The notes under the pieces are model-generated. The model was not told the origin of the DNA, did no database searches, and saw only the letters and a list, made by a program, of their open reading frames with translations. This document shows, in pieces, positions 1 to 7,375 of a DNA stretch of 20,000 nucleotides. The translations under genes were made by a program, and so were the position numbers. The DNA comes from an uncultured virus (IMG/VR IMGVR_UViG_3300047481_002482) (taxonomy: Duplodnaviria > Heunggongvirae > Uroviricota > Caudoviricetes). The DNA lies in the IMG/VR virus record IMGVR_UViG_3300047481_002482; one strand, written 5' to 3'. Position 1 is the first letter of the stretch; each line of letters starts with the position of its first letter.

Positions 1-1166
1 TGTTTGCCTGGTTCGCAAGGCGTTTGCGAGAAAACCAACCTCTTGGATTTACTCTTTCAGGGTATGTGAAACACAAATTTGGTGAACGAGTTCAATCGTT
101 GTTTTTGATTGAAAGCAGTGTGTTAGCAATCTGCGCGGTCGCCATCAATGTGCTGGCTGGCAGCAAGGCCATTGAAACTATCACAGGCATGAGTTATCAT
201 GCTGCTAGTGCGGTATTGACCTTGTTGGCATTGGCATACGTGCTACGGGGTGGACTCAAAGCCTCTGTCGTGACTGAAATTTTCAAAATCACCATACTGT
301 GGATTGGTATTGCGATTCTGGTGCCATGGGCCTGGAACGCCGGCGGCGGTATCGATTCCGTGATTGCAGGCCTGGGTGGTATCACCGGCCAGGGCAACAG
401 TCTATTTGGGAACGATTTCGTGTTAGGAATTTTCATGGGCATGGGTTTGAGTACCGTGCTGGGACATCTTGGTGCGCCTTGGGCAGACAACAGCTTTTAT
501 CAAAGAGCTTTCAGTATCAAGCAAAACAGCATCATTCCAGCATTCATTTTTGGAGCACTAATATTCCTGTTTATTCCTTTGACGATGGGCAGCCTTGGAT
601 TTCTGGCAGCTGGCACCGGACTCGAAATCGCCAAGGATGCAGTGGGTATGACTGCTATCATAGCAGTAGGATCGGTATTGCCAAGCTGGACCTTGATTGT
701 TCTGATATTCATGACCTTTGCGGGTTTGGTCTCAGTGATAGACGGACATCTCAGTTCGGCGTCGTCCATCGTTGGACACGATGTCAGGTCAAGATTCCGA
801 GATAAAAATGACGAACCCAGCACAGTGACCTGGGCTAGATCGGGCATGATAGCTGTGGCCGCCATTGGCCTGATTATTGCTAATTGGCCTGGAATGACCT
901 TGCTCACGATCTTTCTGTTCTTCGCAGTAATGCGTGCCACTGTTTGGTGGCCAATGATGTTGCACCTGGCTAGGCCGGCTCTACTAAACGAACGAGGGGT
1001 GTTCTGGGGAATCCTATTGGCATTTTTGATTGGCATGCCAATATACCTCTTTGGTCAGTTTGTTGGTCAAAAAGATCTTATAATGATTGGTACATTGACA
1101 GCGGTGTTTGGTAGTGCTGCGCTCAGTCTACTCATAACCAAACTAACCAGCAACACAACAAAATGA
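1..1166 (+). CDS. Sodium:solute symporter (SSS) family transporter, urea/DUR3-like; 5'-truncated by window edge
   Basis: Frame is open from position 3. Many hydrophobic TM segments; SSS-type motifs YVLRGGLKASVVTE, DNSFYQRAFS and AGLVSVIDGHLSSASSIVGHD. Confidence 0.85.
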   Translation, partial: FAWFARRLRENQPLGFTLSGYVKHKFGERVQSLFLIESSVLAICAVAINVLAGSKAIETITGMSYHAASAVLTLLALAYVLRGGLKASVVTEIFKITILWIGIAILVPWAWNAGGGIDSVIAGLGGITGQGNSLFGNDFVLGIFMGMGLSTVLGHLGAPWADNSFYQRAFSIKQNSIIPAFIFGALIFLFIPLTMGSLGFLAAGTGLEIAKDAVGMTAIIAVGSVLPSWTLIVLIFMTFAGLVSVIDGHLSSASSIVGHDVRSRFRDKNDEPSTVTWARSGMIAVAAIGLIIANWPGMTLLTIFLFFAVMRATVWWPMMLHLARPALLNERGVFWGILLAFLIGMPIYLFGQFVGQKDLIMIGTLTAVFGSAALSLLITKLTSNTTK

Positions 1167-1747
1167 CTACCGACGATCAAACTTTTTTCTGGGGTGGAGA
1201 CGCCAAATTTGCAGTGGTGCAGCGCAATAATGGCAGGATCTGGATGATCGATGACAGGATCCCTTACCTATCATCCATACCTGCAGTGTTTCAGAGCAAG
1301 ATTCCGTTGATGCTGCTGGATATATCCACTGTCAAAAACAATCGGAACTCAATCATTGACAATAGCTGTTGTTACAACTGGACGATCAAGTTCCAAGATC
1401 AACAGGTGCCAGTGCCCATGAAAAAACTCAGCAGCCGTTGGGTTGATTACGACAAGGTTTATGTTTGTTCCGAAAATTCAGTATTATCAGAGCATGTACA
1501 TGATGCAGATCCAATCGAGATCGATCTACGCCGGCAGCTCTTCCTGTATTACAATCTAGTTCGCGATGCATATCATTACTTTGATCAACCCGGCTCCGAC
1601 CTCGCCACGATCATGACAACAATGTGTGAAATCTTCGGATCTAATCTTTACATCCAGGACATATATGAAGCATTGGTCTACCATAGACGAGATATGTTCC
1701 ACGACCGGGTACTCAAATACATAGAAAGGGATCTCAAATATGCATGA
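1163..1747 (+). CDS. Hypothetical protein (194 aa)
   Basis: ATGA overlap with the upstream stop and overlap with the downstream start, consistent with translational coupling; no recognisable motif. Confidence 0.7.
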   Translation: MTTDDQTFFWGGDAKFAVVQRNNGRIWMIDDRIPYLSSIPAVFQSKIPLMLLDISTVKNNRNSIIDNSCCYNWTIKFQDQQVPVPMKKLSSRWVDYDKVYVCSENSVLSEHVHDADPIEIDLRRQLFLYYNLVRDAYHYFDQPGSDLATIMTTMCEIFGSNLYIQDIYEALVYHRRDMFHDRVLKYIERDLKYA

Positions 1748-2891
1748 CATAGTGTATGTGAACTGGACTCTGATCAAAATGTATGATTGGAACCTGCTGG
1801 ACAGCCAAGATCTGCTGCCAGAAGTGCGAAAAGCCCTTGAACTCTCAGATCTGCCCAATCTAGAAGGTTATCTTTTTGATAGACATCGCAAGATCAGTGT
1901 TGGCCCTATCAAATCGAACAAGACAGCCCCTTATGTCGTGCCACCGTTGCCTGATCGTGAACTGACGTTTTCTCATTGCCTAGACGAAGTCGTGACAGAG
2001 ATATTGCACACGCACAAAAATTCTAAGATATATCTGGCTTGGTCTGGGGGCGTAGACAGCACCACATTGGTGTGCGCTATGCTGCGTAATGCCACCAAAG
2101 ACATGTTGGATCGTGTCACGATACTTTGTTCTAATGACAGTGTGCTGGAAAATCAATATTTTTTTTATAGGATCATCAAGCCCATGTTGCAGGTGGCCGA
2201 CATCAATGAATTCAAGATCGACAGCCAATTTGTTAGCAACGGTTCAATTATGATGGACGGAGAATGTGGCAACCAAATCAATCTTGGATATTGGACATAT
2301 GATTTGATATCATCTGACCAGTGGGACTTGCTCGAGGCCCCGTTCAAAGATGCACCGTTGCACAAAATAATGGGTGTTGATGCTAACAGTCCTGGACTAA
2401 AAAACTTACAAGAAATTCTATTTGACAGCGCAGAATCTGCTCCGGTGGACATAAAAACAGTGTACGATCTGGCCTGGTGGAGCAATTTCAATTTCAAGCT
2501 GGACTATGTGATGTATCGTAAAGCCATGCCGACTTACACTAAGCATTTGACCCAATCCGAAACCAAAATATTTTTTGAAAAAAACCTGGTGCATGCTTAC
2601 GCTCATACTTTGATGCAACAGTGGGCAATGTCCTCTTTGTTGCAAAGGAGAACATTCGATCGATCAAAGACCGCAAAGTATTTCCAGAAAGACTATATCT
2701 ATCAGATTGATAAAAATCCCTACTATTTCCGGTTCAAGCCAGAACAGAGCAGCATGGCAACATACTATACCTGTTATGGTAAAGGAATTCCTACGATGTC
2801 GGATCTGTTCGCGGTGACTGACTCATTCAAGAAACTGTCTTTTTTTAATGCGGAGGACCGCCAAACATTGAAGAAATGGTTATTCGGATAA
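1740..2891 (+). CDS. PP-loop (adenine nucleotide alpha hydrolase) protein, asparagine synthetase C-terminal-like
   Basis: LAWSGGVDST PP-loop motif and MDGECGNQI, similar to the asparagine synthetase GEGxDE motif; no N-terminal glutaminase domain apparent. Confidence 0.75.
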   Translation: MHDIVYVNWTLIKMYDWNLLDSQDLLPEVRKALELSDLPNLEGYLFDRHRKISVGPIKSNKTAPYVVPPLPDRELTFSHCLDEVVTEILHTHKNSKIYLAWSGGVDSTTLVCAMLRNATKDMLDRVTILCSNDSVLENQYFFYRIIKPMLQVADINEFKIDSQFVSNGSIMMDGECGNQINLGYWTYDLISSDQWDLLEAPFKDAPLHKIMGVDANSPGLKNLQEILFDSAESAPVDIKTVYDLAWWSNFNFKLDYVMYRKAMPTYTKHLTQSETKIFFEKNLVHAYAHTLMQQWAMSSLLQRRTFDRSKTAKYFQKDYIYQIDKNPYYFRFKPEQSSMATYYTCYGKGIPTMSDLFAVTDSFKKLSFFNAEDRQTLKKWLFG

Positions 2892-2916
2892 GGCGTGATA
2901 AGTTACAAAAAAACAG

Positions 2917-2945
2917 TTGACAAGGTATAAATAAACCTATACAAT
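2917..2945 (+). promoter_or_regulatory. Sigma70-type promoter with an embedded T4-late-like TATAAATA
   Basis: TTGACA 2917-2922, 17-bp spacer, TACAAT 2940-2945; TATAAATA at 2926-2933. Confidence 0.85.
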
Positions 2946-2952
2946 AGACACT

Positions 2953-3084
2953 ATGATGACTCAACAATTATCACCCATATCGATGCATTTGCCTAAGATG
3001 CTAGGTTGCCAGACCACATGGTTTGGATCCCTATCAGTCTATCTCCAGGCGATCGAGAACAGTGATAGTGGAGGGTCCGAGTAG
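2953..3084 (+). CDS. Putative leaderless attenuator leader peptide (43 aa, MMTQQLSPISMHLPKMLGCQTTWFGSLSVYLQAIENSDSGGSE)
   Basis: ATG lies 7 nt after the -10 box, i.e. at the expected start site; its last codons and TAG overlap the 5' arm of the antiterminator hairpin. Not in the supplied ORF track. Confidence 0.6.
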   Translation: MMTQQLSPISMHLPKMLGCQTTWFGSLSVYLQAIENSDSGGSE

Positions 3085-3145
3085 ATCAAGTTGTAACTAG
3101 ATTTTATCTACAAGGACCCTGGATCGAAAGATACCAGGGTTTTTT
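3072..3145 (+). terminator. Overlapping antiterminator / intrinsic terminator (attenuator)
   Basis: Terminator: ACCCTGG-ATC-GAAA-GAT-A-CCAGGGT plus T run (3116-3145). Antiterminator: AGGGTCC(3072-78)/GGACCCT(3114-20) plus GTAGAT(3081-86)/ATCTAC(3106-11). The two share 3116-3120. Confidence 0.8.
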
Positions 3146-3149
3146 GTTA

Positions 3150-3290
3150 TACGCCAGGCAACGAGGGCCAAGTCAGCGTACAATAAAAAGACGAACGGGC
3201 GGAGTCCAGGATGAAGTCTCTCTTGTGAGACGAAAGATTGGCAGGCAGGGGATGGCCCTGCGATATGGCAGCCACGAGAGTGGCTCTATA
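3150..3290 (+). ncRNA. Candidate structured RNA of unknown family
   Basis: Series of hairpins: TACGC/GCGTA (3150-3180), GTCTC/GAGAC (3216-3231), GCAGGG/CCCTGC (3245-3261), AGCCAC-GAGA-GTGGCT (3270-3285, GNRA loop). No credible ORF. Confidence 0.45.
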
Positions 3291-3395
3291 TTTGAACACA
3301 TTACTCTCAGCAACAACGAGCATCCGCGGAGAGGACACGATCAGGCTCGATTCGAATCGAGGCTGCACGGTCGCCGACTCAGTAGTGTGTTCAAA
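3291..3395 (+). ncRNA. Stem-closed tRNA-like element (unknown ncRNA)
   Basis: 15-bp closing stem TTTGAACACATTACT/AGTAGTGTGTTCAAA (one G-U); internal T-loop-like hairpin CTCGA-TTCGAA-TCGAG at 3346-3361. Confidence 0.5.
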
Positions 3396-3398
3396 CAT

Positions 3399-3487
3399 GG
3401 TTCCTGTTCCTCGCGATGGTCTGTAAAACCGTTGCCTTTAATATGCGGGGTGGCGGCAGTTAGGTTCGATTCCCTGATCATCCACCA
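3399..3487 (+). pseudogene. Atypical or chimeric tRNA-Tyr(GTA)-like element
   Basis: 8-bp anticodon stem with CTGTAAA loop (GTA 3423-25), GGTTCGATTCC T-loop and 3' ACCA; no D arm, and the acceptor strands do not match. Confidence 0.55.
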
Positions 3488-3494
3488 GTTTCAT

Positions 3495-3572
3495 GCACCG
3501 TTCGTCTAGCTGGTCAAGGACATCTCCCTTTCACGGAGAAGATCAGGGGTTCGAATCCCCTACGGTGTACCA
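3495..3572 (+). tRNA. tRNA-Glu(TTC)
   Basis: Full cloverleaf: GCACCGT/ACGGTGT acceptor, TCTCC-CTTTCAC-GGAGA anticodon arm, AGGGG-TTCGAAT-CCCCT, encoded CCA. Confidence 0.95.
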
Positions 3573-3578
3573 GTTCCG

Positions 3579-3948
3579 GGTGCCAAAGTGTTCATGGACG
3601 CACACTTTTAAAAAACTGTAAGCTAATTTTTAAGCTCTGCAGGACCCATTTCGTGATAAGTACCTGATGCCGCGCATACATCAACTGCTGACTCTCTTGC
3701 CCATGCCTCTGTTTGTCATAGGATTTATTCTGTCCCTGCTCTCTCCGCAGTCTATCTGCACACAGTTTCCCTATGAAATGACCATAATGTGGGCTGTAAT
3801 GGCCCTGGCACACACATCACCTTGGCTGTTATTCTATCAACAGCACTTTGCCCGGAATGCTTAGACAGCAGTGATAACTGCCCTGTAACACTGCCCAAGA
3901 GAGCCTGTCACGCTGGAAGAAGGGGATCGTTACCCCTTGGTACCGCCA
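3579..3948 (+). tRNA. Interrupted tRNA-Asp(GTC): 5' part 3579-3606, 3' part 3902-3948, 295-bp insert
   Basis: GGTGCCA(3579-85) pairs with TGGTACC(3938-44). D arm GTGT/GCAC is in the 5' part; the CTGTCAC anticodon loop, T arm, G73 and CCA are in the 3' part. Joined length is 75 nt. Confidence 0.8.
3667..3864 (+). CDS. Small membrane protein (65 aa) inside the tRNA-Asp insert
   Basis: Two hydrophobic stretches; preceded by TAAGTA (3657-62), which resembles the TAAATA promoter motif seen elsewhere in the window. Confidence 0.6.
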   Translation: MPRIHQLLTLLPMPLFVIGFILSLLSPQSICTQFPYEMTIMWAVMALAHTSPWLLFYQQHFARNA

Positions 3949-3954
3949 ATGCAA

Positions 3955-4029
3955 GCCCTTGTAGCTCAGCTGGCAGAGCAGCGCACTCGTAATGCGTGGG
4001 TCGGGAGTTCGATCCTCTCCGGGGCACCA
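3955..4029 (+). tRNA. tRNA-Thr(CGT)
   Basis: GCTC/GAGC D arm, GCGCA-CTCGTAA-TGCGT, T arm and ACCA; the 3' acceptor strand looks one base short. Confidence 0.85.
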
Positions 4030-4034
4030 CACAT

Positions 4035-4109
4035 GTATCGGTAGTGTCAACGGTAGCACGGCAGCCTCCAAATCTGCTTGTGAGGGTTCGAATCCTTCCC
4101 GGTACGCCA
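4035..4109 (+). tRNA. tRNA-Trp(CCA)
   Basis: GTATCGG/CCGGTAC acceptor, CTCCAAA loop (CCA 4068-70), GAGGG-TTCGAAT-CCTTC, G73-CCA. Confidence 0.92.
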
Positions 4110-4123
4110 ATTGTAGTTGACTT

Positions 4124-4201
4124 AGTGAGGTGGCCGAGTGGTCCAAGGCAACCGGTTGCAACCCGGTAAAATCGTGAGTTCGAATCTCACCCTCACTTCC
4201 A
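4124..4201 (+). tRNA. tRNA-Cys(GCA)
   Basis: AGTGAGG/CCTCACT acceptor, ACCGG-TTGCAAC-CCGGT, GTGAG-TTCGAAT-CTCAC, U73-CCA. Confidence 0.95.
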
Positions 4202-4282
4202 TTTTTTTATTAAGGAGAAGATCATGACCCAGGAAGAACGCTGGCAGTGGATCTAAGACAATGTGCAATGATCTCAAAGCAA

Positions 4283-4311
4283 TTGACATCTCATATGATC
4301 AATGCTAGAAT
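4283..4311 (+). promoter_or_regulatory. Sigma70-type promoter upstream of rpoZ
   Basis: TTGACA 4283-88, 17-bp spacer, TGC-TAGAAT (extended -10; hexamer 4306-11). Confidence 0.8.
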
Positions 4312-4336
4312 GTTGTTTTAATTATTGGAACATGAA

Positions 4337-4573
4337 ATGGCACGAATATCTAGCGAAATTGCCGCCCAAAAGGTCGGCCGGTATGATCTTATCCTTATCG
4401 GTGCTCGCAGGGCCCGAGAGCTCAATCGCGGATGGCGACCCACCGTATCCGGTAACAACGGCATAGTGGTCACTGCCATCCGCGAGATCGAAGCCGGCAC
4501 GATCGGCCGAGATTATCTCTTGAAGCCACCTAATCTGGATCGCAGAGAGCGACCGCCAGAATCGGATCGATAA
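4337..4573 (+). CDS. rpoZ: RNA polymerase omega subunit homolog
   Basis: MARISSE...RYDLILIGARRAREL...VTAIREIEAG matches the omega pattern MARVT...NRFxLVLxAAxRARQL...VxALREIxxG; ATG at 4337 preferred over TTG at 4325. Confidence 0.85.
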   Translation: MARISSEIAAQKVGRYDLILIGARRARELNRGWRPTVSGNNGIVVTAIREIEAGTIGRDYLLKPPNLDRRERPPESDR

Positions 4574-4791
4574 TCCATGGTCAAGCCTGTGAGCGAAAGC
4601 AGGCCAGCCACCATCCCAACTGTGAGGGAAGCACTACCACCCTGGGCCTCTGTAGCCGCAATAGGCCGCGCTCCATGGCATGGAGATGAACACGCATCAG
4701 GGGATCGCGAGGCTGGGTTGGTAGCCCAGCAAAGGCCGGTTGGGCCGGCATCGTGGATCTTAAACACAGCACAGTGGGTTTGACCATGGAT
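4573..4791 (+). ncRNA. Highly structured ~220-nt RNA of unidentified family
   Basis: 15-bp terminal stem ATCCATGGTCAAGCC/GGTTTGACCATGGAT, GC-GAAA-GC tetraloop and several internal GC-rich hairpins; G-U pairs favour the + strand. Confidence 0.65.
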
Positions 4792-4946
4792 CAACGGTGA
4801 TGCCGTAACGCGCCTTGTAAGCCAGCCTCTCATCGCCATGACATATATACAGAACATGGATCAACAGCGATGTAAGGGCCTGCAACGCCCGCAGGTGTGT
4901 TAGAAACATCGACCTCTCGCTGCCATGCCCCAACCCGGAGATCGCA

Positions 4947-5108
4947 ATGAGCATAAAAGGACTGAAAGAAGCACTGGCCCGTAAACAGGCACAACAAAAC
5001 CCAGACACCAAATCCACGGAAGGTGCTGAAGTCAAGGTAACTGCTACCACTCCTGTGCGGGTAGGTGGCAGCAAGCCGCAGAAAAAAGTTACTGGCCGAG
5101 GTCGATAA
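4947..5108 (+). CDS. Small basic protein (53 aa, MSIKGLKEALARKQAQQNP...KPQKKVTGRGR)
   Basis: GGAG RBS 6 nt upstream; Lys/Arg-rich; fills the gap before the next gene. Not in the ORF track. Confidence 0.6.
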   Translation: MSIKGLKEALARKQAQQNPDTKSTEGAEVKVTATTPVRVGGSKPQKKVTGRGR

Positions 5109-5129
5109 CACAATAGAAAGGAGGGCACG

Positions 5130-5735
5130 ATGCCAGCAGTATGGTTAGTATCAGACACACATTTTGGTCATGCTGGCGTTTGCCGATTCACCCGAGATGA
5201 TGGTAGCAAACTCCGTCCGTGGGACGATCCTGCGGAGATGGATGAACATCTCGTGCGTGTGTGGAACGAGCGTGTGAGGCCGCAGGACAAAGTGTATCAT
5301 TTGGGGGACGTGGTGATCAACAGAAAGGCCATGAAAACTCTAGGTCGACTCAACGGAGACAAGGTCCTGATCCGTGGCAACCACGACATCTTCCGAGACG
5401 ATGAGTATCGTGAGTACTTCCGTGAGCTGCGTGCTTACCATGTGATGAACGGAATGATCCTGAGCCACATACCGGTGCATGAGGCCAGCCTTGGCAGATT
5501 TGGTACCAACATCCATGGCCACACACACTATCAGCGTGTGAAACGGGCTCATGGTGTAGATGCACGCACCGGCGAAATGTTGTACTCAGACGAGATCGAT
5601 ACGAGATATCATTGTGTGTGCGTGGAGCAACTTCCAGACTTTGCTCCTATCCTGTTTGAAGATGTGATCCGGCGTATCGAGACCGAAGGTGGCACCGTGG
5701 GGTTCCGCAGCGGCAATGGTCCCATGGTGGACTGA
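5130..5735 (+). CDS. Calcineurin-like metallophosphoesterase
   Basis: Motifs SDTHFGH, HLGD, GNHD, SH and HGHTH; strong RBS AAGGAGG. Confidence 0.92.
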   Translation: MPAVWLVSDTHFGHAGVCRFTRDDGSKLRPWDDPAEMDEHLVRVWNERVRPQDKVYHLGDVVINRKAMKTLGRLNGDKVLIRGNHDIFRDDEYREYFRELRAYHVMNGMILSHIPVHEASLGRFGTNIHGHTHYQRVKRAHGVDARTGEMLYSDEIDTRYHCVCVEQLPDFAPILFEDVIRRIETEGGTVGFRSGNGPMVD

Positions 5736-5737
5736 TC

Positions 5738-5896
5738 ATGAAACTTTGGGAAGCCACCATTAGACAACCAGGACCCGGTACCGCGGAATTCAAGGTCCGG
5801 ATTGGTGCCGAAAATGCTGAAGAAGCCCGGAGATTATTACAGCAACTACACGGACCAAGATCGGTACCTTATCTACCTCGACAGGTACCACAGTAA
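5738..5896 (+). CDS. Hypothetical protein (52 aa, MKLWEATIRQ...YLPRQVPQ)
   Basis: Starts 2 nt after the upstream stop and ends just before the TAAATA motif of the tmRNA gene. Not in the ORF track. Confidence 0.6.
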   Translation: MKLWEATIRQPGPGTAEFKVRIGAENAEEARRLLQQLHGPRSVPYLPRQVPQ

Positions 5897-5904
5897 TAAA
5901 TATC

Positions 5905-6273
5905 AGGATTGTTGTATGAAGCGAGTGGAACAACGGGCAAGACAGGGGTTCGATTCCCCTCTGGTCCACCATAAGGAGACTGACAATGCTAGAAACTCTA
6001 TTTTGGCTGGCGATAGGTGCTTTCATAGGTTGGAATTTCCCCCAACCCGAATTCGCAAAAAGCATCCAGGCTCGAGTGATAGATATGTTCAGGAAAAAAT
6101 CTTAGTCTCTTTATGATGGGCCAGCCATGGTATCGATTGACGGTCTATTACACGAGTGGACAACAGGTCAGGCGAAGGACCTAATCCTAGCAAAACCACA
6201 AACGCCAACGACAGCGTTTACGCAATGGCCGCTTGAGCCTGCTGAGGGTGGAAGCCCAAGAAACAGAACTTCC
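5905..6273 (+). ncRNA. ssrA: Circularly permuted (two-piece) tmRNA; acceptor piece ~5905-5971, coding piece 6118-~6273, tag ANDSVYAMAA
   Basis: T arm AGGGG-TTCGATT-CCCCT, then CTGGTCC-A-CCA (5961-71), which pairs with the downstream GGGCCAG (6118-24) including the G3-U70 Ala determinant. PK1-like GGTC/GACC plus AGG/CCT. Tag ORF 6204-6236. Confidence 0.92.
5986..6105 (+). CDS. Small membrane protein (39 aa, MLETLFWLAIGAFIGWNFPQPEFAKSIQARVIDMFRKKS) in the tmRNA intervening segment
   Basis: TAAGGAG RBS directly after the CCA; N-terminal TM helix and basic tail. Not in the ORF track. Confidence 0.7.
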   Translation: MLETLFWLAIGAFIGWNFPQPEFAKSIQARVIDMFRKKS

Positions 6274-6302
6274 AAAAGCCCGCTACCCGCGGGCTTTTTT
6301 TT
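6274..6302 (+). terminator. Intrinsic terminator after tmRNA
   Basis: AAAAGCCCGC-TACCC-GCGGGC followed by a T run. Confidence 0.9.
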
Positions 6303-6373
6303 GGCCGCGGTATGGGCCTACTAAATATCTCAAGCAGCGCCGGTATCATGCCGACGCCGGATCAAATCGACGC

Positions 6374-6402
6374 TTGACATAGCAATGTCTTTACTGTATT
6401 AT
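6374..6402 (+). promoter_or_regulatory. Sigma70-type promoter upstream of the Bug/TctC gene
   Basis: TTGACA 6374-79, 17-bp spacer, TATTAT 6397-6402; each box overlaps a palindrome. Confidence 0.55.
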
Positions 6403-6466
6403 CAATACAGAACGCCGTCCGTAAGCATCTTTGCTAGCACAACTACTCAAGTGATATGGAGACACA

Positions 6467-7375
6467 ATGATCCGTTTCTTTACGATGGTGTTATTATTCG
6501 CATTCTTTGTGCCCTCGCATGCAAAAACCATTCCAATAATCATACCATTCAGCGCAGGGGGCGTGACAGCTTTGACCTGGCAGATCATAGAACCCTATGC
6601 TAATCAAAAACTCAAACAAAACGGTATTGTTCTACGCACAGAGCATCTGCCCGGGGCTGGCGGAGGGATCGGAGCGGCTGCTGCCTTAAGGCGGCAAGAA
6701 GGTACCTTAGTTTTCACATCTACCAGTGTGGCATTGTTGCCATTGATCAATCCTGCTTTTGATTACCAATTAAGTGATTTTTCTCTGGTGAATCATGTGG
6801 GCCAATATCCATTGGTATTGTTTGCATCGACCCAAATTAACACGTGGCAAAATCTCTTGGTCAAATGCCGTAAAGGCCCAGTTAGTTTTGGCAACAGTGG
6901 ACATGGCAGCATGACGGCGGTGACCGGTGAGGCCATATTTAGATCAATGGGTTGTAAAAGCGAAATGATACCATATAAAAGTGCCAGCCAGGCCATGCCG
7001 GATTTGGTCCAAGGAGTGATAGATACAGTGGTAGATCATCCCACGTTGCCAAACCTGGACCTGGCGCGCACTGAGAGAATCAGACCTATCATGGTGTTAT
7101 GCCAAAACAGAATTTCTGTGCTTCCTCATGTACCTTGTCACGGAGAACTTGCCATAGACACCGATTTCGCTAACTGGCATGTGCTTTTGGCCAATCAACT
7201 CATTGATCGTAGAGATATGGAAATGGTAAAACATGCGGTCAATCAAACTTTGCAAGATCAAGAGGTGCGCAGAGCTCTGCAGAAAATGGGCATGAACAAC
7301 ATAGGCGGCACCGTACCGACTGACTTTTTATTACGAGAGCAGCATAAATTCAGACAGAGTTTAACAACTCAATGA
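6467..7375 (+). CDS. Bug/TctC family tripartite tricarboxylate transporter substrate-binding protein
   Basis: Signal peptide; motifs IIPFSAGG, PGAGGGIG, GNSGHGS and IPYKS...DLVQG typical of Bug/TctC; GGAG RBS. Confidence 0.88.
   Translation: MIRFFTMVLLFAFFVPSHAKTIPIIIPFSAGGVTALTWQIIEPYANQKLKQNGIVLRTEHLPGAGGGIGAAAALRRQEGTLVFTSTSVALLPLINPAFDYQLSDFSLVNHVGQYPLVLFASTQINTWQNLLVKCRKGPVSFGNSGHGSMTAVTGEAIFRSMGCKSEMIPYKSASQAMPDLVQGVIDTVVDHPTLPNLDLARTERIRPIMVLCQNRISVLPHVPCHGELAIDTDFANWHVLLANQLIDRRDMEMVKHAVNQTLQDQEVRRALQKMGMNNIGGTVPTDFLLREQHKFRQSLTTQ

What the first reader, a model, noticed from the sequence alone, without database searches (positions are those of the whole stretch)
2917..3145. Leader-peptide attenuator that may switch on the tRNA array when translation fails
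Seen: a near-consensus promoter, an ATG at the predicted +1, and a 43-codon ORF whose last codons and stop (3072-3086) form the 5' arm of a hairpin. That hairpin excludes the intrinsic terminator (3116-3145) located directly ahead of the ncRNA/tRNA array. Known: this is the logic of trp/his-type ribosome-mediated attenuation. Inference: a ribosome reaching the stop masks the antiterminator, so transcription terminates; a stalled or absent ribosome permits read-through. Unlike classical leaders there is no run of a single codon. It uses 19 of 20 amino acids (no Arg) and 32 distinct codons, and includes Cys, Thr, Trp, Tyr, Glu and Asp, the specificities encoded downstream. It could therefore be a general sensor of tRNA depletion, for example by host anticodon-nuclease defences.
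Basis: partly seen in the sequence, partly recalled or inferred. Interest (0 to 1): 0.9.

Follow-up and report, generated by a model that had tools for sequence, protein, structure and literature searches.

The report
Leader-peptide attenuator before phage tRNAs
Between a strong promoter and the tRNA genes of many uncultured freshwater phages lies a short translated reading frame whose end sits inside one of two mutually exclusive RNA hairpins, an arrangement that probably lets ribosome performance decide whether the tRNA genes are transcribed.

Summary
Window 2917-3145 holds a near-consensus promoter, an ATG 7 nt after the -10 box, a 43-codon ORF, a hairpin that contains the stop codon, and an intrinsic terminator.

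Pattern scans found the same architecture in 45 viral contigs and 11 metagenome stretches (38 distinct sequences analysed).
- The ORF is open in every evaluable copy (38-48 codons), although the peptides diverge strongly.
- The G-run that pairs with the terminator's C-run is read in all three frames in different subfamilies.
- Both alternative helices, antiterminator 2:3 and terminator 3:4, show compensatory changes. One shared nucleotide covaries with both of its partners.
- tRNA genes follow on the same strand within 1.5 kb in 38 of 45 contigs.

The best reading is a ribosome-mediated transcription attenuator of the phage tRNA operon.

Three things are not supported or not shown:
- any match between the leader's codons and the downstream tRNAs;
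- covariation for the 1:2 "anti-antiterminator" helix;
- any expression or termination, since no RNA data were available.

The trigger (general translation failure, tRNA-cleaving defences) remains speculation. No Rfam family and no cultured phage matches, and three literature searches found no description.

The parts
2917..2945 (+). Sigma-70-type promoter: TTGACA, 17-nt spacer holding the conserved TATAAATAAA, then TACAAT
   Evidence: 11 of 12 matches. The same promoter with the same spacing stands before the element in all relatives found through the 3' end. The spacer motif occurs once in the window.
2953..3084 (+). Leader ORF of 43 codons plus TAG. The ATG lies 7 nt after the -10 box, so the mRNA is leaderless.
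   Evidence: The ORF is open in 38 of 38 distinct elements, though the script's filter required an ORF. No copy with the hairpins lacked one. Pooled pN/pS is 0.42 in frame, against 1.72 and 0.70 out of frame.
2958..2974 (+). Region 1: predicted 5' partner of region 2 and of the GUGAUAG stretch (anti-antiterminator). Prediction only.
   Evidence: MFE. Covariation does not support it.
3072..3078 (+). Region 2: A-GGGUCC, the 5' strand of the antiterminator base helix, inside the last codons of the ORF
   Evidence: 95.1% of cells paired; 3 of 7 pairs with changes on both sides. The G-run is read in all three frames among subfamilies.
3081..3111 (+). Apical hairpin P of the antiterminator. Its 5' arm contains the stop codon 3082-3084.
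   Evidence: In 38 of 38 elements at least one stop-codon nucleotide is paired in the 5' arm; all three are paired in 30.
3114..3120 (+). Region 3: GGACCC-U, the strand shared by antiterminator and terminator
   Evidence: the CCC core pairs with G on both sides in 37 of 37. The next nucleotide (T3120) covaries with both partners: AUA 24, GCG 5, UGC 1.
3117..3145 (+). Intrinsic terminator: stem CCCUGGAU / AU-ACCAGGG and U6
   Evidence: 98.6% of cells paired, 3 of 6 pairs with changes on both sides, covariation score 0.287 against 0.157 +/- 0.016 (0 of 500 shuffles as high).
3148..3205 (+). Conserved post-terminator RNA motif: hairpin with the invariant loop AACGAGG, then AACGGGCGG. It is the first part of the read-through transcript.
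   Evidence: 31 of 38 distinct elements have it within 600 nt after the terminator.
3495..4201 (+). Downstream tRNA genes: Glu 3495-3572, Thr 3954-4028, Trp 4035-4109, Cys 4124-4201

Best explanation
This is the cis-acting leader of the phage's tRNA operon. It works as a ribosome-mediated transcription attenuator.

Proposed sequence of events:
1. RNA polymerase starts at a strong promoter. The RNA begins with, or within a few nucleotides of, AUG, and a ribosome translates a 38-48-codon frame.
2. The last part of that frame is the 5' strand (region 2, GGGUCC) of a long hairpin. The hairpin's tip holds the stop codon, and its 3' strand (region 3, GGACCC) is also the 5' strand of an intrinsic terminator.
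3. If no ribosome has reached the end of the frame when region 3 emerges, regions 2 and 3 pair. This antiterminator is -18 to -29 kcal/mol, against -10 to -13.5 for the terminator stem. The terminator cannot form, and polymerase runs on into the conserved non-coding RNA and the tRNA genes.
4. If a ribosome has kept pace and is translating or terminating at the end of the frame, it unwinds or occupies region 2 and the tip hairpin. Region 3 then pairs with region 4, and transcription stops at the U-run.

What is shown and what is inferred:
- Shown by sequence comparison: the frame, the two exclusive helices, the position of the stop codon, and the synteny with tRNA genes.
- Inferred: that the ribosome is the switch, the sign of the response, and the physiological signal, which is most simply the speed or availability of translation relative to transcription.
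For: (1) Conservation found from either end independently.
- The 3' patterns gave 15 stretches. Of these, 13 hold the 5' part, and 13 of 13 have the promoter, the ATG 7 nt after the -10 box and an open frame.
- The promoter-only pattern gave 51 stretches. Of these, 44 carry ORF, hairpins and terminator by script. L055 was missed only because its T-run is interrupted. L049 is cut off after 36 nt. Five are unrelated chance matches.

(2) Translation matters more than the peptide.
- The 38 distinct elements have ORFs of 38-48 codons. The other two frames have a median of 3 stops each.
- The peptides share little beyond M1 and one Trp.
- Pooled pN/pS is 0.42 in frame, against 1.72 and 0.70 out of frame.

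(3) The G-run of region 2 is conserved as RNA. It is read in frame 0, 1 or 2 in 16, 16 and 6 elements.

(4) Both helices covary on a structure-blind MAFFT alignment of 35 sequences.
- Helix 2:3: 95.1% of cells paired, 3 of 7 pairs with double changes, score 0.214 against 0.138 +/- 0.012 (0 of 500 shuffles).
- Helix 3:4: 98.6% paired, 3 of 6 pairs with double changes, 0.287 against 0.157 +/- 0.016 (0 of 500).
- The nucleotide after the CCC core changes together with both partners (AUA, GCG, UGC).
- Variant 2:3 helices include GGGUUG/CAACCC, GGGGUUCUG/CAGAGCCCC and a 13-bp form.

(5) Geometry.
- The stop codon lies in the 5' arm of the tip hairpin in 38 of 38 elements.
- It lies 47-56 nt before the terminator's G-run, although ORF length varies.

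(6) When region 4 is left out, the 3' domain folds into the antiterminator in 38 of 38. Eighteen representatives give z from -3.9 to -7.5. The segment ends were chosen at the outermost pair, which favours low energies.

(7) Same-strand tRNA genes follow within 1.5 kb in 38 of 45 contigs. In two of the other seven, longer loci show them at about 1.5 and 2 kb. In L013, L014, L019, L003 and L020 a gene with an SD starts 10-20 nt after the T-run, with no room for a promoter of its own; in L031 its ATG lies about 30 nt after the T-run.

(8) Equilibrium model with a 28-nt ribosome mask.
- With the stop codon in the A site, the terminator pairs have probability of at least 0.94 in 19 of 19.
- With the ribosome on the first two codons, the antiterminator has at least 0.6 in 19 of 19.
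- These results follow in part from how the mask is built.
Against: - No RNA data: no run on record as RNA holds the stretch, so neither the start, the 3' end at 3145 nor translation is shown.
- The host is unknown. The promoter is judged by the E. coli consensus, and whether the host translates leaderless mRNA well is unknown.
- The predicted 1:2 helix has no covariation support: 77.7% of cells paired, score 0.116 against 0.132 in shuffles, 434 of 500 shuffles at least as high. The behaviour without any ribosome is therefore open. Modelled terminator probability without a ribosome ranges from 0.05 to 0.96.
- In 16 of 38 elements the stop lies 20 nt or more after the first G of the region-2 G-run. 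A terminating ribosome would cover the upper hairpin but only the edge of region 2.
- Eight distinct elements (subfamily A) start the main ORF 43-48 nt after the -10 box, without a clear SD, behind a 2-3-codon mini-ORF.
- L024, L026 and L066 carry a second consensus promoter just after the terminator, and their U-runs are interrupted. There, tRNA transcription need not depend on read-through.
- There is no run of any codon and no match between leader codons and the locus's own tRNAs.
- pN/pS of 0.42 leaves room for a function of the peptide itself.
Confidence: 0.6

Rival explanations
1. This is a stand-alone small gene. The 38-48-residue peptide is the product, for example an early phage micro-protein. 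The terminator simply ends its transcript, and the tRNA genes are expressed from leak-through or from other promoters.
For: - Frame-specific excess of synonymous change: pN/pS 0.42 against 1.72 and 0.70 out of frame.
- An invariant Trp and, in the main clade, a conserved RAIENSDxGGS end.
- A second promoter after the terminator in L024, L026 and L066.
Against: - Peptides of different subfamilies share almost nothing.
- The conserved GGGUCC is read in three different frames.
- Covariation of a helix (2:3) that excludes the terminator has no role in this reading.
- Codon adaptation is at the 0.2 percentile of 42-codon windows taken from the window's own genes.
- The peptide is not called as a gene in the 15-billion-protein collection (0 of 4 exact look-ups) and has no Pfam or PHROG hit.
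Confidence: 0.12
2. The switch is operated by a trans-acting factor rather than by the ribosome. The factor could be a phage or host protein, a tRNA or a small molecule that binds the antiterminator hairpin or the polymerase (Q/N/put-like or T-box/riboswitch-like). The frame would be incidental to the mechanism.
For: - The promoter spacer TATAAATAAA is conserved like an operator. This is partly because the scans required it, but it is also present in all loci found through the 3' end.
- A constitutive promoter followed by a terminated RNA of about 190 nt ahead of an operon recalls lambda PR'-6S RNA-tR' (recalled, not from a call).
Against: - The frame is kept open in every copy across in-frame length changes, and all indels are multiples of three. 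A factor-only model does not predict this.
- The stop codon keeps its place in the hairpin arm in 38 of 38.
- No T-box or any other Rfam family matches.
Confidence: 0.12
3. The terminated RNA of about 193 nt is itself the functional product: a structured trans-acting sRNA, possibly dual-function with its peptide. Read-through is a side effect. This does not exclude the attenuator reading.
For: - Strong structure (z -4.78).
- A strong promoter together with a terminator gives an abundant discrete RNA.
- Precedent: the attenuator-derived sRNA rnTrpL and the peptide peTrpL in Sinorhizobium (PMC6614838, PMC7968998; search listing and start of the abstracts only).
Against: - The central domain varies freely in sequence and length.
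- No conserved single-stranded seed was found.
- An sRNA-only model does not explain the conserved frame or the conserved synteny with tRNA genes.
Confidence: 0.08
4. This is an ordinary promoter and terminator with a chance ORF.
For: A single 43-codon ORF in one sequence can arise by chance. One search lists 228 ORFs of at least 30 aa in 20 kb.
Against: - The frame is conserved in all copies, while the two other frames have a median of 3 stops.
- Both helices covary.
Confidence: 0.02

Closest known systems
Leader-peptide attenuators of amino-acid operons in enterobacteria (trp, his, leu, thr, ilv, pheA); recalled knowledge. pheL is also seen in the listing (PMC3082878, abstract start).
   Same: - A short translated frame lies directly behind the promoter.
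- An intrinsic terminator stands before the regulated genes.
- An antiterminator helix shares a strand with the terminator.
- The stop codon lies next to region 2, so a ribosome at the end of the frame favours termination.
   Different: - There is no run of codons for one amino acid.
- The frame is longer (38-48 codons) and covers region 2 itself.
- The mRNA is leaderless in 30 of 38 distinct elements (ATG 6-11 nt after the -10 box).
- The regulated genes are tRNAs and non-coding RNA, and the element belongs to phages.
Leaderless polycysteine short ORFs acting as cysteine-responsive attenuators in mycobacteria (bioRxiv 10.1101/834739; search listing and abstract start only)
   Same: A leaderless short ORF at the transcription start controls the genes downstream through its own translation.
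   Different: - Those ORFs carry a Cys-codon run and sense one amino acid.
- They are host genes.
- I did not read whether an intrinsic terminator switch is involved.
Antibiotic-responsive ribosome-stalling attenuators before resistance genes (e.g. vmlR, bmrCD, lmo0919; Term-seq study of Dar et al. 2016); recalled, not from a call
   Same: A leader ORF without amino-acid specificity reports general trouble of the ribosome by switching a terminator to an antiterminator.
   Different: - They are bacterial and control drug-response genes.
- Stalling is caused by the drug.
- No sequence or family relation was tested or found here.
Lambda PR' - 6S RNA - tR' with Q antitermination; recalled, not from a call
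   Same: In a phage, a strong promoter makes a short RNA of about 190 nt, ended by a strong terminator, ahead of an operon. A conserved promoter spacer could be a binding site.
   Different: The lambda system depends on a protein that modifies the polymerase. It has no conserved frame and no antiterminator helix sharing a strand with the terminator.
T-box riboswitch
   Same: It links tRNA status to a terminator/antiterminator choice.
   Different: - It senses uncharged tRNA by base pairing, without translation.
- No T-box model or any other Rfam model matches: at gathering thresholds, and at E-values up to 10 over 2850-4350.

Membership tests
Ribosome-mediated (leader-peptide) transcription attenuator | A short ORF in the promoter-proximal leader, kept open in relatives | tested here: met
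   open in every copy that has the hairpins, at 38-48 codons. The other frames have a median of 3 stops.
Ribosome-mediated (leader-peptide) transcription attenuator | An intrinsic terminator between the leader ORF and the regulated genes | tested here: met
   a GC-rich stem with covariation followed by a U-run. The U-run is interrupted in L024, L026, L066, L027, L041 and L053.
Ribosome-mediated (leader-peptide) transcription attenuator | An antiterminator helix mutually exclusive with the terminator | tested here: met
   the CCC core is shared, both helices covary, and one nucleotide covaries with both partners.
Ribosome-mediated (leader-peptide) transcription attenuator | The ribosome's position on the ORF overlaps a strand of the switch | tested here: met
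   region 2 lies inside the ORF, 9-26 nt before the stop. The stop lies in the hairpin's 5' arm in 38 of 38. In the 16 elements where the distance is 20-26 nt, the overlap with region 2 itself is marginal.
Ribosome-mediated (leader-peptide) transcription attenuator | A helix 1:2 that sequesters region 2 when the leader is not translated | tested here: inconclusive
   MFE predicts it in 16 of 19 and in the main clade. Covariation is no better than shuffles.
Amino-acid-specific attenuators (trp/his type) | A run of codons for the regulated amino acid in the part that controls the switch | tested here: not met
   there is no codon run, and a single Trp codon. There is no match to the locus's own tRNAs.
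Ribosome-mediated (leader-peptide) transcription attenuator | Read-through depends on translation of the leader (experiment) | not testable with these tools
   No RNA holder was listed, and contigs cannot show RNA ends.
Any Rfam family (T-box, riboswitches, known leaders, sRNAs) | A match to the covariance model | tested here: not met
   only tRNA and tmRNA models match in the window and in 13 related loci.

The most novel reading that the evidence does not exclude
Large freshwater phages carry a portable sensor of host translational capacity. It is a leaderless leader frame that measures whether a pioneer ribosome keeps up with RNA polymerase. When translation slows, whether through a codon-supply mismatch, host shut-off or tRNA-cleaving defence nucleases, the sensor opens transcription of the phage's own tRNA operon and the conserved non-coding RNA that precedes it. 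That would be a feedback loop in which a virus regulates its supply of tRNA by the demand for it.
Probability: 0.25. Interest if true: 0.9.

Novelty: new variant of a known kind. Interest (0 to 1): 0.75.

Why it matters
Phage tRNA arrays are usually discussed as constitutive helpers for codon usage, or as a counter to tRNA-targeting defences. How their expression is controlled is hardly known.

A conserved translation-coupled switch in front of them would mean that phages regulate tRNA supply by the state of the ribosome. It would also extend leader-peptide attenuation in three ways:
- to non-coding target genes;
- to leaderless mRNAs;
- to viruses.

The element is compact (about 230 bp), self-contained, and found before different downstream genes. 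It is therefore directly testable in reporter constructs, and it could serve as a sensor of translation rate.

Three full-text searches found no description of such an element. No Rfam family and no GenBank phage record matches it.

Tried and rejected
- Whole genome: none is held.
- Relatives through the upstream protein: only a contig identical to window 1-2028, which ends before the element.
- GenBank phages: window 1700-6500 gave only tRNA-sized matches. The leader of the window and of two other subfamilies gave no match.
- Prokaryote genomes: 16 stretches match the promoter pattern, all in other contexts, and 0 of 16 carry the element. No host could be named.
- Rfam: no family matches.
- Expression: no RNA holder was listed. 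The four runs laid are contigs, and the one labelled RNA is probably DNA. They show that variants of the element are common in freshwater samples but nothing about RNA ends.
- Exact look-up of four leader peptides in the protein collection: 0 of 4 present. Pfam and PHROGs: no hit for the peptide or for the small ORF family.
- Helix 1:2: covariation is not above shuffles.
- First small alignment (19 sequences): covariation of 2:3 and 3:4 was weak, with 1 and 2 pairs showing double changes. It became clear only with the 35-sequence set.
- Leader codons against the locus's own tRNAs: no enrichment. The test is weak because most arrays are cut off by the locus ends.
- Considered and dropped:
  - Type I toxin: the peptide has no long hydrophobic stretch (by eye).
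  - Arbitrium-type signal peptide: no signal sequence and no aimR context (recalled criteria).
  - A sigma-dependent pause element (AACAAT at +11 to +16): not conserved among relatives.
  - Self-cleaving ribozymes for the post-terminator motif: no Rfam hit at E-values up to 10.
Full report
**What is in the window.**
- Promoter: TTGACA (2917-2922), 17 nt, TACAAT (2940-2945). This is 11 of 12 consensus positions.
- An ATG stands at 2953, 7 nt after the -10 box. An RNA starting at T2952 or A2953 therefore has no leader and no Shine-Dalgarno sequence.
- The ORF runs 2953-3084 (43 codons).
- A-GGGUCC lies at 3072-3078.
- A hairpin pairs GUAGAU (3081-3086) with AUCUAC (3106-3111). Its 5' arm contains the stop codon UAG (3082-3084).
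- GGACCC-U lies at 3114-3120.
- The terminator pairs CCCUGG (3117-3122) with CCAGGG (3134-3139), followed by U6 (3140-3145).
- The 196-nt RNA folds far better than shuffles (-68.5 against -47.0 +/- 4.5 kcal/mol; z -4.78).
Region 3060-3130 folds into the antiterminator (-24.4). With 3070-3097 held single-stranded, the terminator forms. For the full leader, the terminator state (-68.5) and the antiterminator state (-65.1) differ by 3.4 kcal/mol.
- Downstream lie a 350-nt stretch without a known family, then tRNA-Glu, Thr, Trp and Cys and, further on, a permuted tmRNA.
- The flanking genes suggest part of a large phage: ThyX, a MoxR-type ATPase, DUF2201, a TctC-family receptor, an SSF-family symporter and sugar-modifying enzymes. 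No whole genome is held.

**Relatives.** GenBank phages hold nothing similar apart from tRNAs. Exact-pattern scans of uncultured collections did find relatives.
- The terminator pattern gave a viral contig that is 80% identical to window 2909-3203, while its flanks are unrelated.
- A 19-mer from region 2 gave 4 viral stretches.
- A pattern spanning region 2 and region 3 gave 11 metagenome stretches.

These scans fix the 3' end, so I judged the 5' end from them. Thirteen of the 15 stretches hold the 5' part. All 13 have the same promoter, the ATG 7 nt after the -10 box, and an open frame of 42-43 codons ending at the same TAG.

In the other direction, scans that fix only the promoter leave the 3' part free. 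Of the 51 stretches:
- 44 carry ORF, hairpins and terminator by script;
- L055 does too (its contig's ORF is shown), but its interrupted T-run escaped my expression;
- L049 is cut off after 36 nt;
- five are unrelated chance matches: L040, L064, L081, L054 and L073.

Sixteen matches to the same promoter pattern in prokaryote genomes all lie in other contexts. The contigs holding the element reach 346 kb. Altogether, 38 distinct elements entered the analysis.

**The frame is kept, the peptide is not.**
- ORF lengths are 38-48 codons.
- The ATG is 6-11 nt after the -10 box in 30 of 38 and 43-48 nt after it in 8. The latter are subfamily A, which has a 2-3-codon mini-ORF at the start.
- Stops are TAG in 22 and TAA in 16.
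- The two other frames have a median of 3 stops. Frame +1 is free of stops in 5 of 38 and frame +2 in 0 of 38. My script required an ORF, so the fair statement is that no copy with the hairpins lacked one.
- Peptides of different subfamilies share little beyond the first Met and one Trp.
- Within clades, pN/pS is 0.00-1.17, with most pairs at 0.2-0.6.
- Pooled over 40 ungapped pairs, which are not independent, pN/pS is 0.42 in frame against 1.72 and 0.70 in the shifted frames. The frame is thus read, under mild constraint on the residues.
- The window's leader has poor codon adaptation: 0.64 against 0.73-0.79 for 15 genes, which is the 0.2 percentile of 42-codon windows. This fits a frame shaped by RNA pairing, or one meant to be slow.
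- Gene callers have not recorded the peptide (0 of 4 exact look-ups).

**The RNA switch is conserved as RNA.**
- The G-run of region 2 is read in all three frames in different subfamilies (16, 16 and 6 elements). For example, GGG-UCC gives Gly-Ser in the main clade, and A-GG GUC C gives Arg-Val in others. Its conservation therefore cannot be due to the peptide.
- With region 4 left out, the 3' domain of all 38 folds into one long hairpin: base helix 2:3, sometimes a middle helix, and a tip hairpin. Energies are -17.9 to -29.3 kcal/mol, against -9.7 to -13.5 for the terminator stems.
- Eighteen representatives give z from -3.9 to -7.5. The segment ends were chosen at the outermost pair, which favours low energies.
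- An alignment-free table (37 sequences, one skipped) shows that the CCC core of region 3 pairs with G in region 2 and with G in region 4 in 37 of 37. The next nucleotide changes together with both partners: A-U-A in 24, G-C-G in 5 and U-G-C in 1; the remaining 7 are wobble combinations (5) or lack the region-2 partner (2).
- On a MAFFT alignment made without regard to structure (35 sequences):
  - Helix 2:3 has 95.1% of cells paired, 3 of 7 pairs with changes on both sides, and a covariation score of 0.214 against 0.138 +/- 0.012 (0 of 500 shuffles as high).
  - Helix 3:4 has 98.6% paired, 3 of 6 such pairs, and 0.287 against 0.157 +/- 0.016 (0 of 500).
  - Sliding the partners by one column drops pairing to about 65% in both.
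- The first 19-sequence set had been too uniform to show this.

Two helices that cannot coexist and that both covary are what a switch looks like.

**Geometry that ties the frame to the switch.**
- The stop codon has at least one nucleotide paired in the 5' arm of the tip hairpin in 38 of 38 elements, and all three in 30.
- It lies 47-56 nt before the terminator's G-run, although the ORFs differ by up to 10 codons.
- The first G of the region-2 G-run lies 9-13 nt before the stop in 22 elements and 20-26 nt before it in 16.
- A ribosome finishing the frame must therefore unwind the antiterminator. In the second class it covers the upper two thirds of the hairpin and only the edge of region 2.
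- An equilibrium model with a 28-nt mask gives the expected picture. With the stop in the A site, terminator probability is at least 0.94 in 19 of 19. With the ribosome on the first two codons, the antiterminator is at least 0.6 in 19 of 19. Without a ribosome, values run from 0.05 to 0.96. These numbers illustrate the balance of the two states; they do not prove the mechanism.

**What is weak.**
- The helix between the 5' end of the frame (2958-2974) and region 2 would make an untranslated leader terminate, as in trp superattenuation. MFE predicts it in 16 of 19 and for the main clade. Covariation does not support it, and in other subfamilies the predicted partner lies elsewhere.
- There is no evidence of expression.
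- Subfamily A lacks both a leaderless start and a clear SD for its main frame.
- L024, L026 and L066 have a second consensus promoter right after the terminator.

**Context.**
- Same-strand tRNA genes follow within 1.5 kb in 38 of 45 contigs.
- Of the other seven, three hold less than 650 nt downstream, two show tRNAs at about 1.5 and 2 kb in longer loci, and two (L041, L067) show none.
- Arrays of up to 23 tRNAs follow (L025).
- Directly after the terminator comes one of two things. The first is a conserved RNA motif: a hairpin with the invariant loop AACGAGG, then AACGGGCGG. It is present within 600 nt in 31 of 38 elements. The second is a 52-58-residue ORF with its own SD, with that motif after it.
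- In five of the six loci with such an ORF (L013, L014, L019, L003, L020) there is no room for a promoter between the U-run and the SD. This fits genes that depend on read-through. In L031 the gap is about 30 nt.
- In L076 the same promoter occurs twice: once directly before the small ORF and once before a leader.

The operon therefore reads: promoter, leader with switch, optional small ORF, conserved non-coding RNA, tRNAs.

**The proposed signal.**
In the window, 4 of 42 codons are readable by the four tRNAs. The Thr tRNA (CGU) reads none of the leader's Thr codons.
- Over the 20 of 38 elements with at least three tRNAs in the DNA held, the fraction readable by a locus's own tRNAs is 0.246, against 0.240 +/- 0.007 for permuted pairings (416 of 2000 at least as high). 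That test is blunt, because most arrays run off the loci.
- A tRNA-Trp is among the downstream tRNAs held in 12 of 38, although the Trp codon is universal.
- A response to general translation speed needs no such match and remains the simplest reading. A link to anticodon nucleases is conjecture.

**Comparison with what is known.**
- It works like the trp/his class of leader-peptide attenuators, and it meets the structural criteria I could test. It lacks their defining codon run.
- It differs in being leaderless, in controlling non-coding genes, and in belonging to phages.
- The nearest precedents I could find in print:
  - leaderless Cys-run ORFs in mycobacteria (10.1101/834739; listing and abstract start only);
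  - attenuator-derived rnTrpL/peTrpL (PMC6614838, PMC7968998; listing only).
- Drug-responsive stalling leaders and lambda's PR'-6S-tR'/Q system are recalled from knowledge, not from a call.
- Three searches returned no paper on an attenuator before phage tRNA genes. That is a statement about those searches, not about all literature.

**Verdict.**
- The interpretation as a leader-peptide attenuator of the tRNA operon is the best-supported reading (0.6).
- The specific trigger is open.
- It is a new variant of a known kind of regulation. It is widespread in uncultured freshwater phages and directly testable.

Noticed in passing
window 3148-3205; also L001, L004, L011, L013, L019, L020, L025, L048 and others: A conserved RNA motif follows the terminator. 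It has an outer helix, then an inner 3-5-bp helix that covaries (GGC/GCC, GGA/UCC, GGU/ACC, AGC/GCU) and closes an invariant 7-nt loop AACGAGG. A small hairpin follows, then (A/G)AACGGGCGG. It is present within 600 nt after the terminator in 31 of 38 distinct elements. No Rfam match. Function unknown; the loop resembles a Shine-Dalgarno sequence.
   Followed up: partly
window 3146-3494: The stretch between terminator and tRNA-Glu is a mosaic of modules shared in different combinations with other loci. Its 3' end looks like a degenerate tRNA-Tyr, with anticodon loop CUGUAAA at about 3424-3430 and ...UCAUCCACCA at 3481-3490. ARAGORN and Rfam do not call it. L004 has an intact tRNA-Tyr at the corresponding place. 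The whole stretch folds no better than shuffles (z -1.75).
   Followed up: partly
L013:2590-2763, L014:965-1135 (-), L019:2118-2294 (-), L003:1489-1647 (-), L020:3231-3389, L031:3267-3443, L076: A family of 52-58-residue ORFs sharing an L(I/F)xxK(I/L)xRAR motif sits, with an SD, directly after the terminator in some relatives. In L076 a second copy of the same promoter drives it directly. No Pfam or PHROG family matches. The window lacks it.
   Followed up: partly
window 4337-4573 (+), behind promoter-like site 4283-4311: A 78-residue ORF matches the RNA polymerase omega / Rpb6 family (PF01192; E 1.1e-9). A phage-borne omega subunit next to the tRNA genes is unusual.
   Followed up: no
window 3606-3901: Contigs of 4 of 4 runs laid join 3605 to about 3902 and skip this stretch, which holds the 65-codon ORF 3667-3864. 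It is therefore an insertion in the window relative to related phages.
   Followed up: no
window 5855-6299; L027/L055, L031/L078, L071, L038: A permuted (two-piece) tmRNA gene of the betaproteobacterial Rfam type lies 2.7 kb downstream in the window. In several relatives it lies upstream of the attenuator promoter: directly upstream in L027/L055 and L071, and about 1-1.6 kb upstream in L038 and L031/L078.
   Followed up: no
window 2923-2939 and all relatives: The promoter spacer TATAAATAAA is invariant in loci found through the 3' end alone. It occurs only once in the window. It could be an operator or a strength element; this is unexplained.
   Followed up: partly
L034, L036, L044, L045, L048, L050, L056, L079 (subfamily A): In this subfamily the RNA starts with a 2-3-codon mini-ORF (ATG CGC CAA TAA or ATG CGC TGA) at the predicted start. 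The main 46-48-codon frame begins 43-48 nt after the -10 box without a clear SD. How it is initiated is unclear.
   Followed up: no
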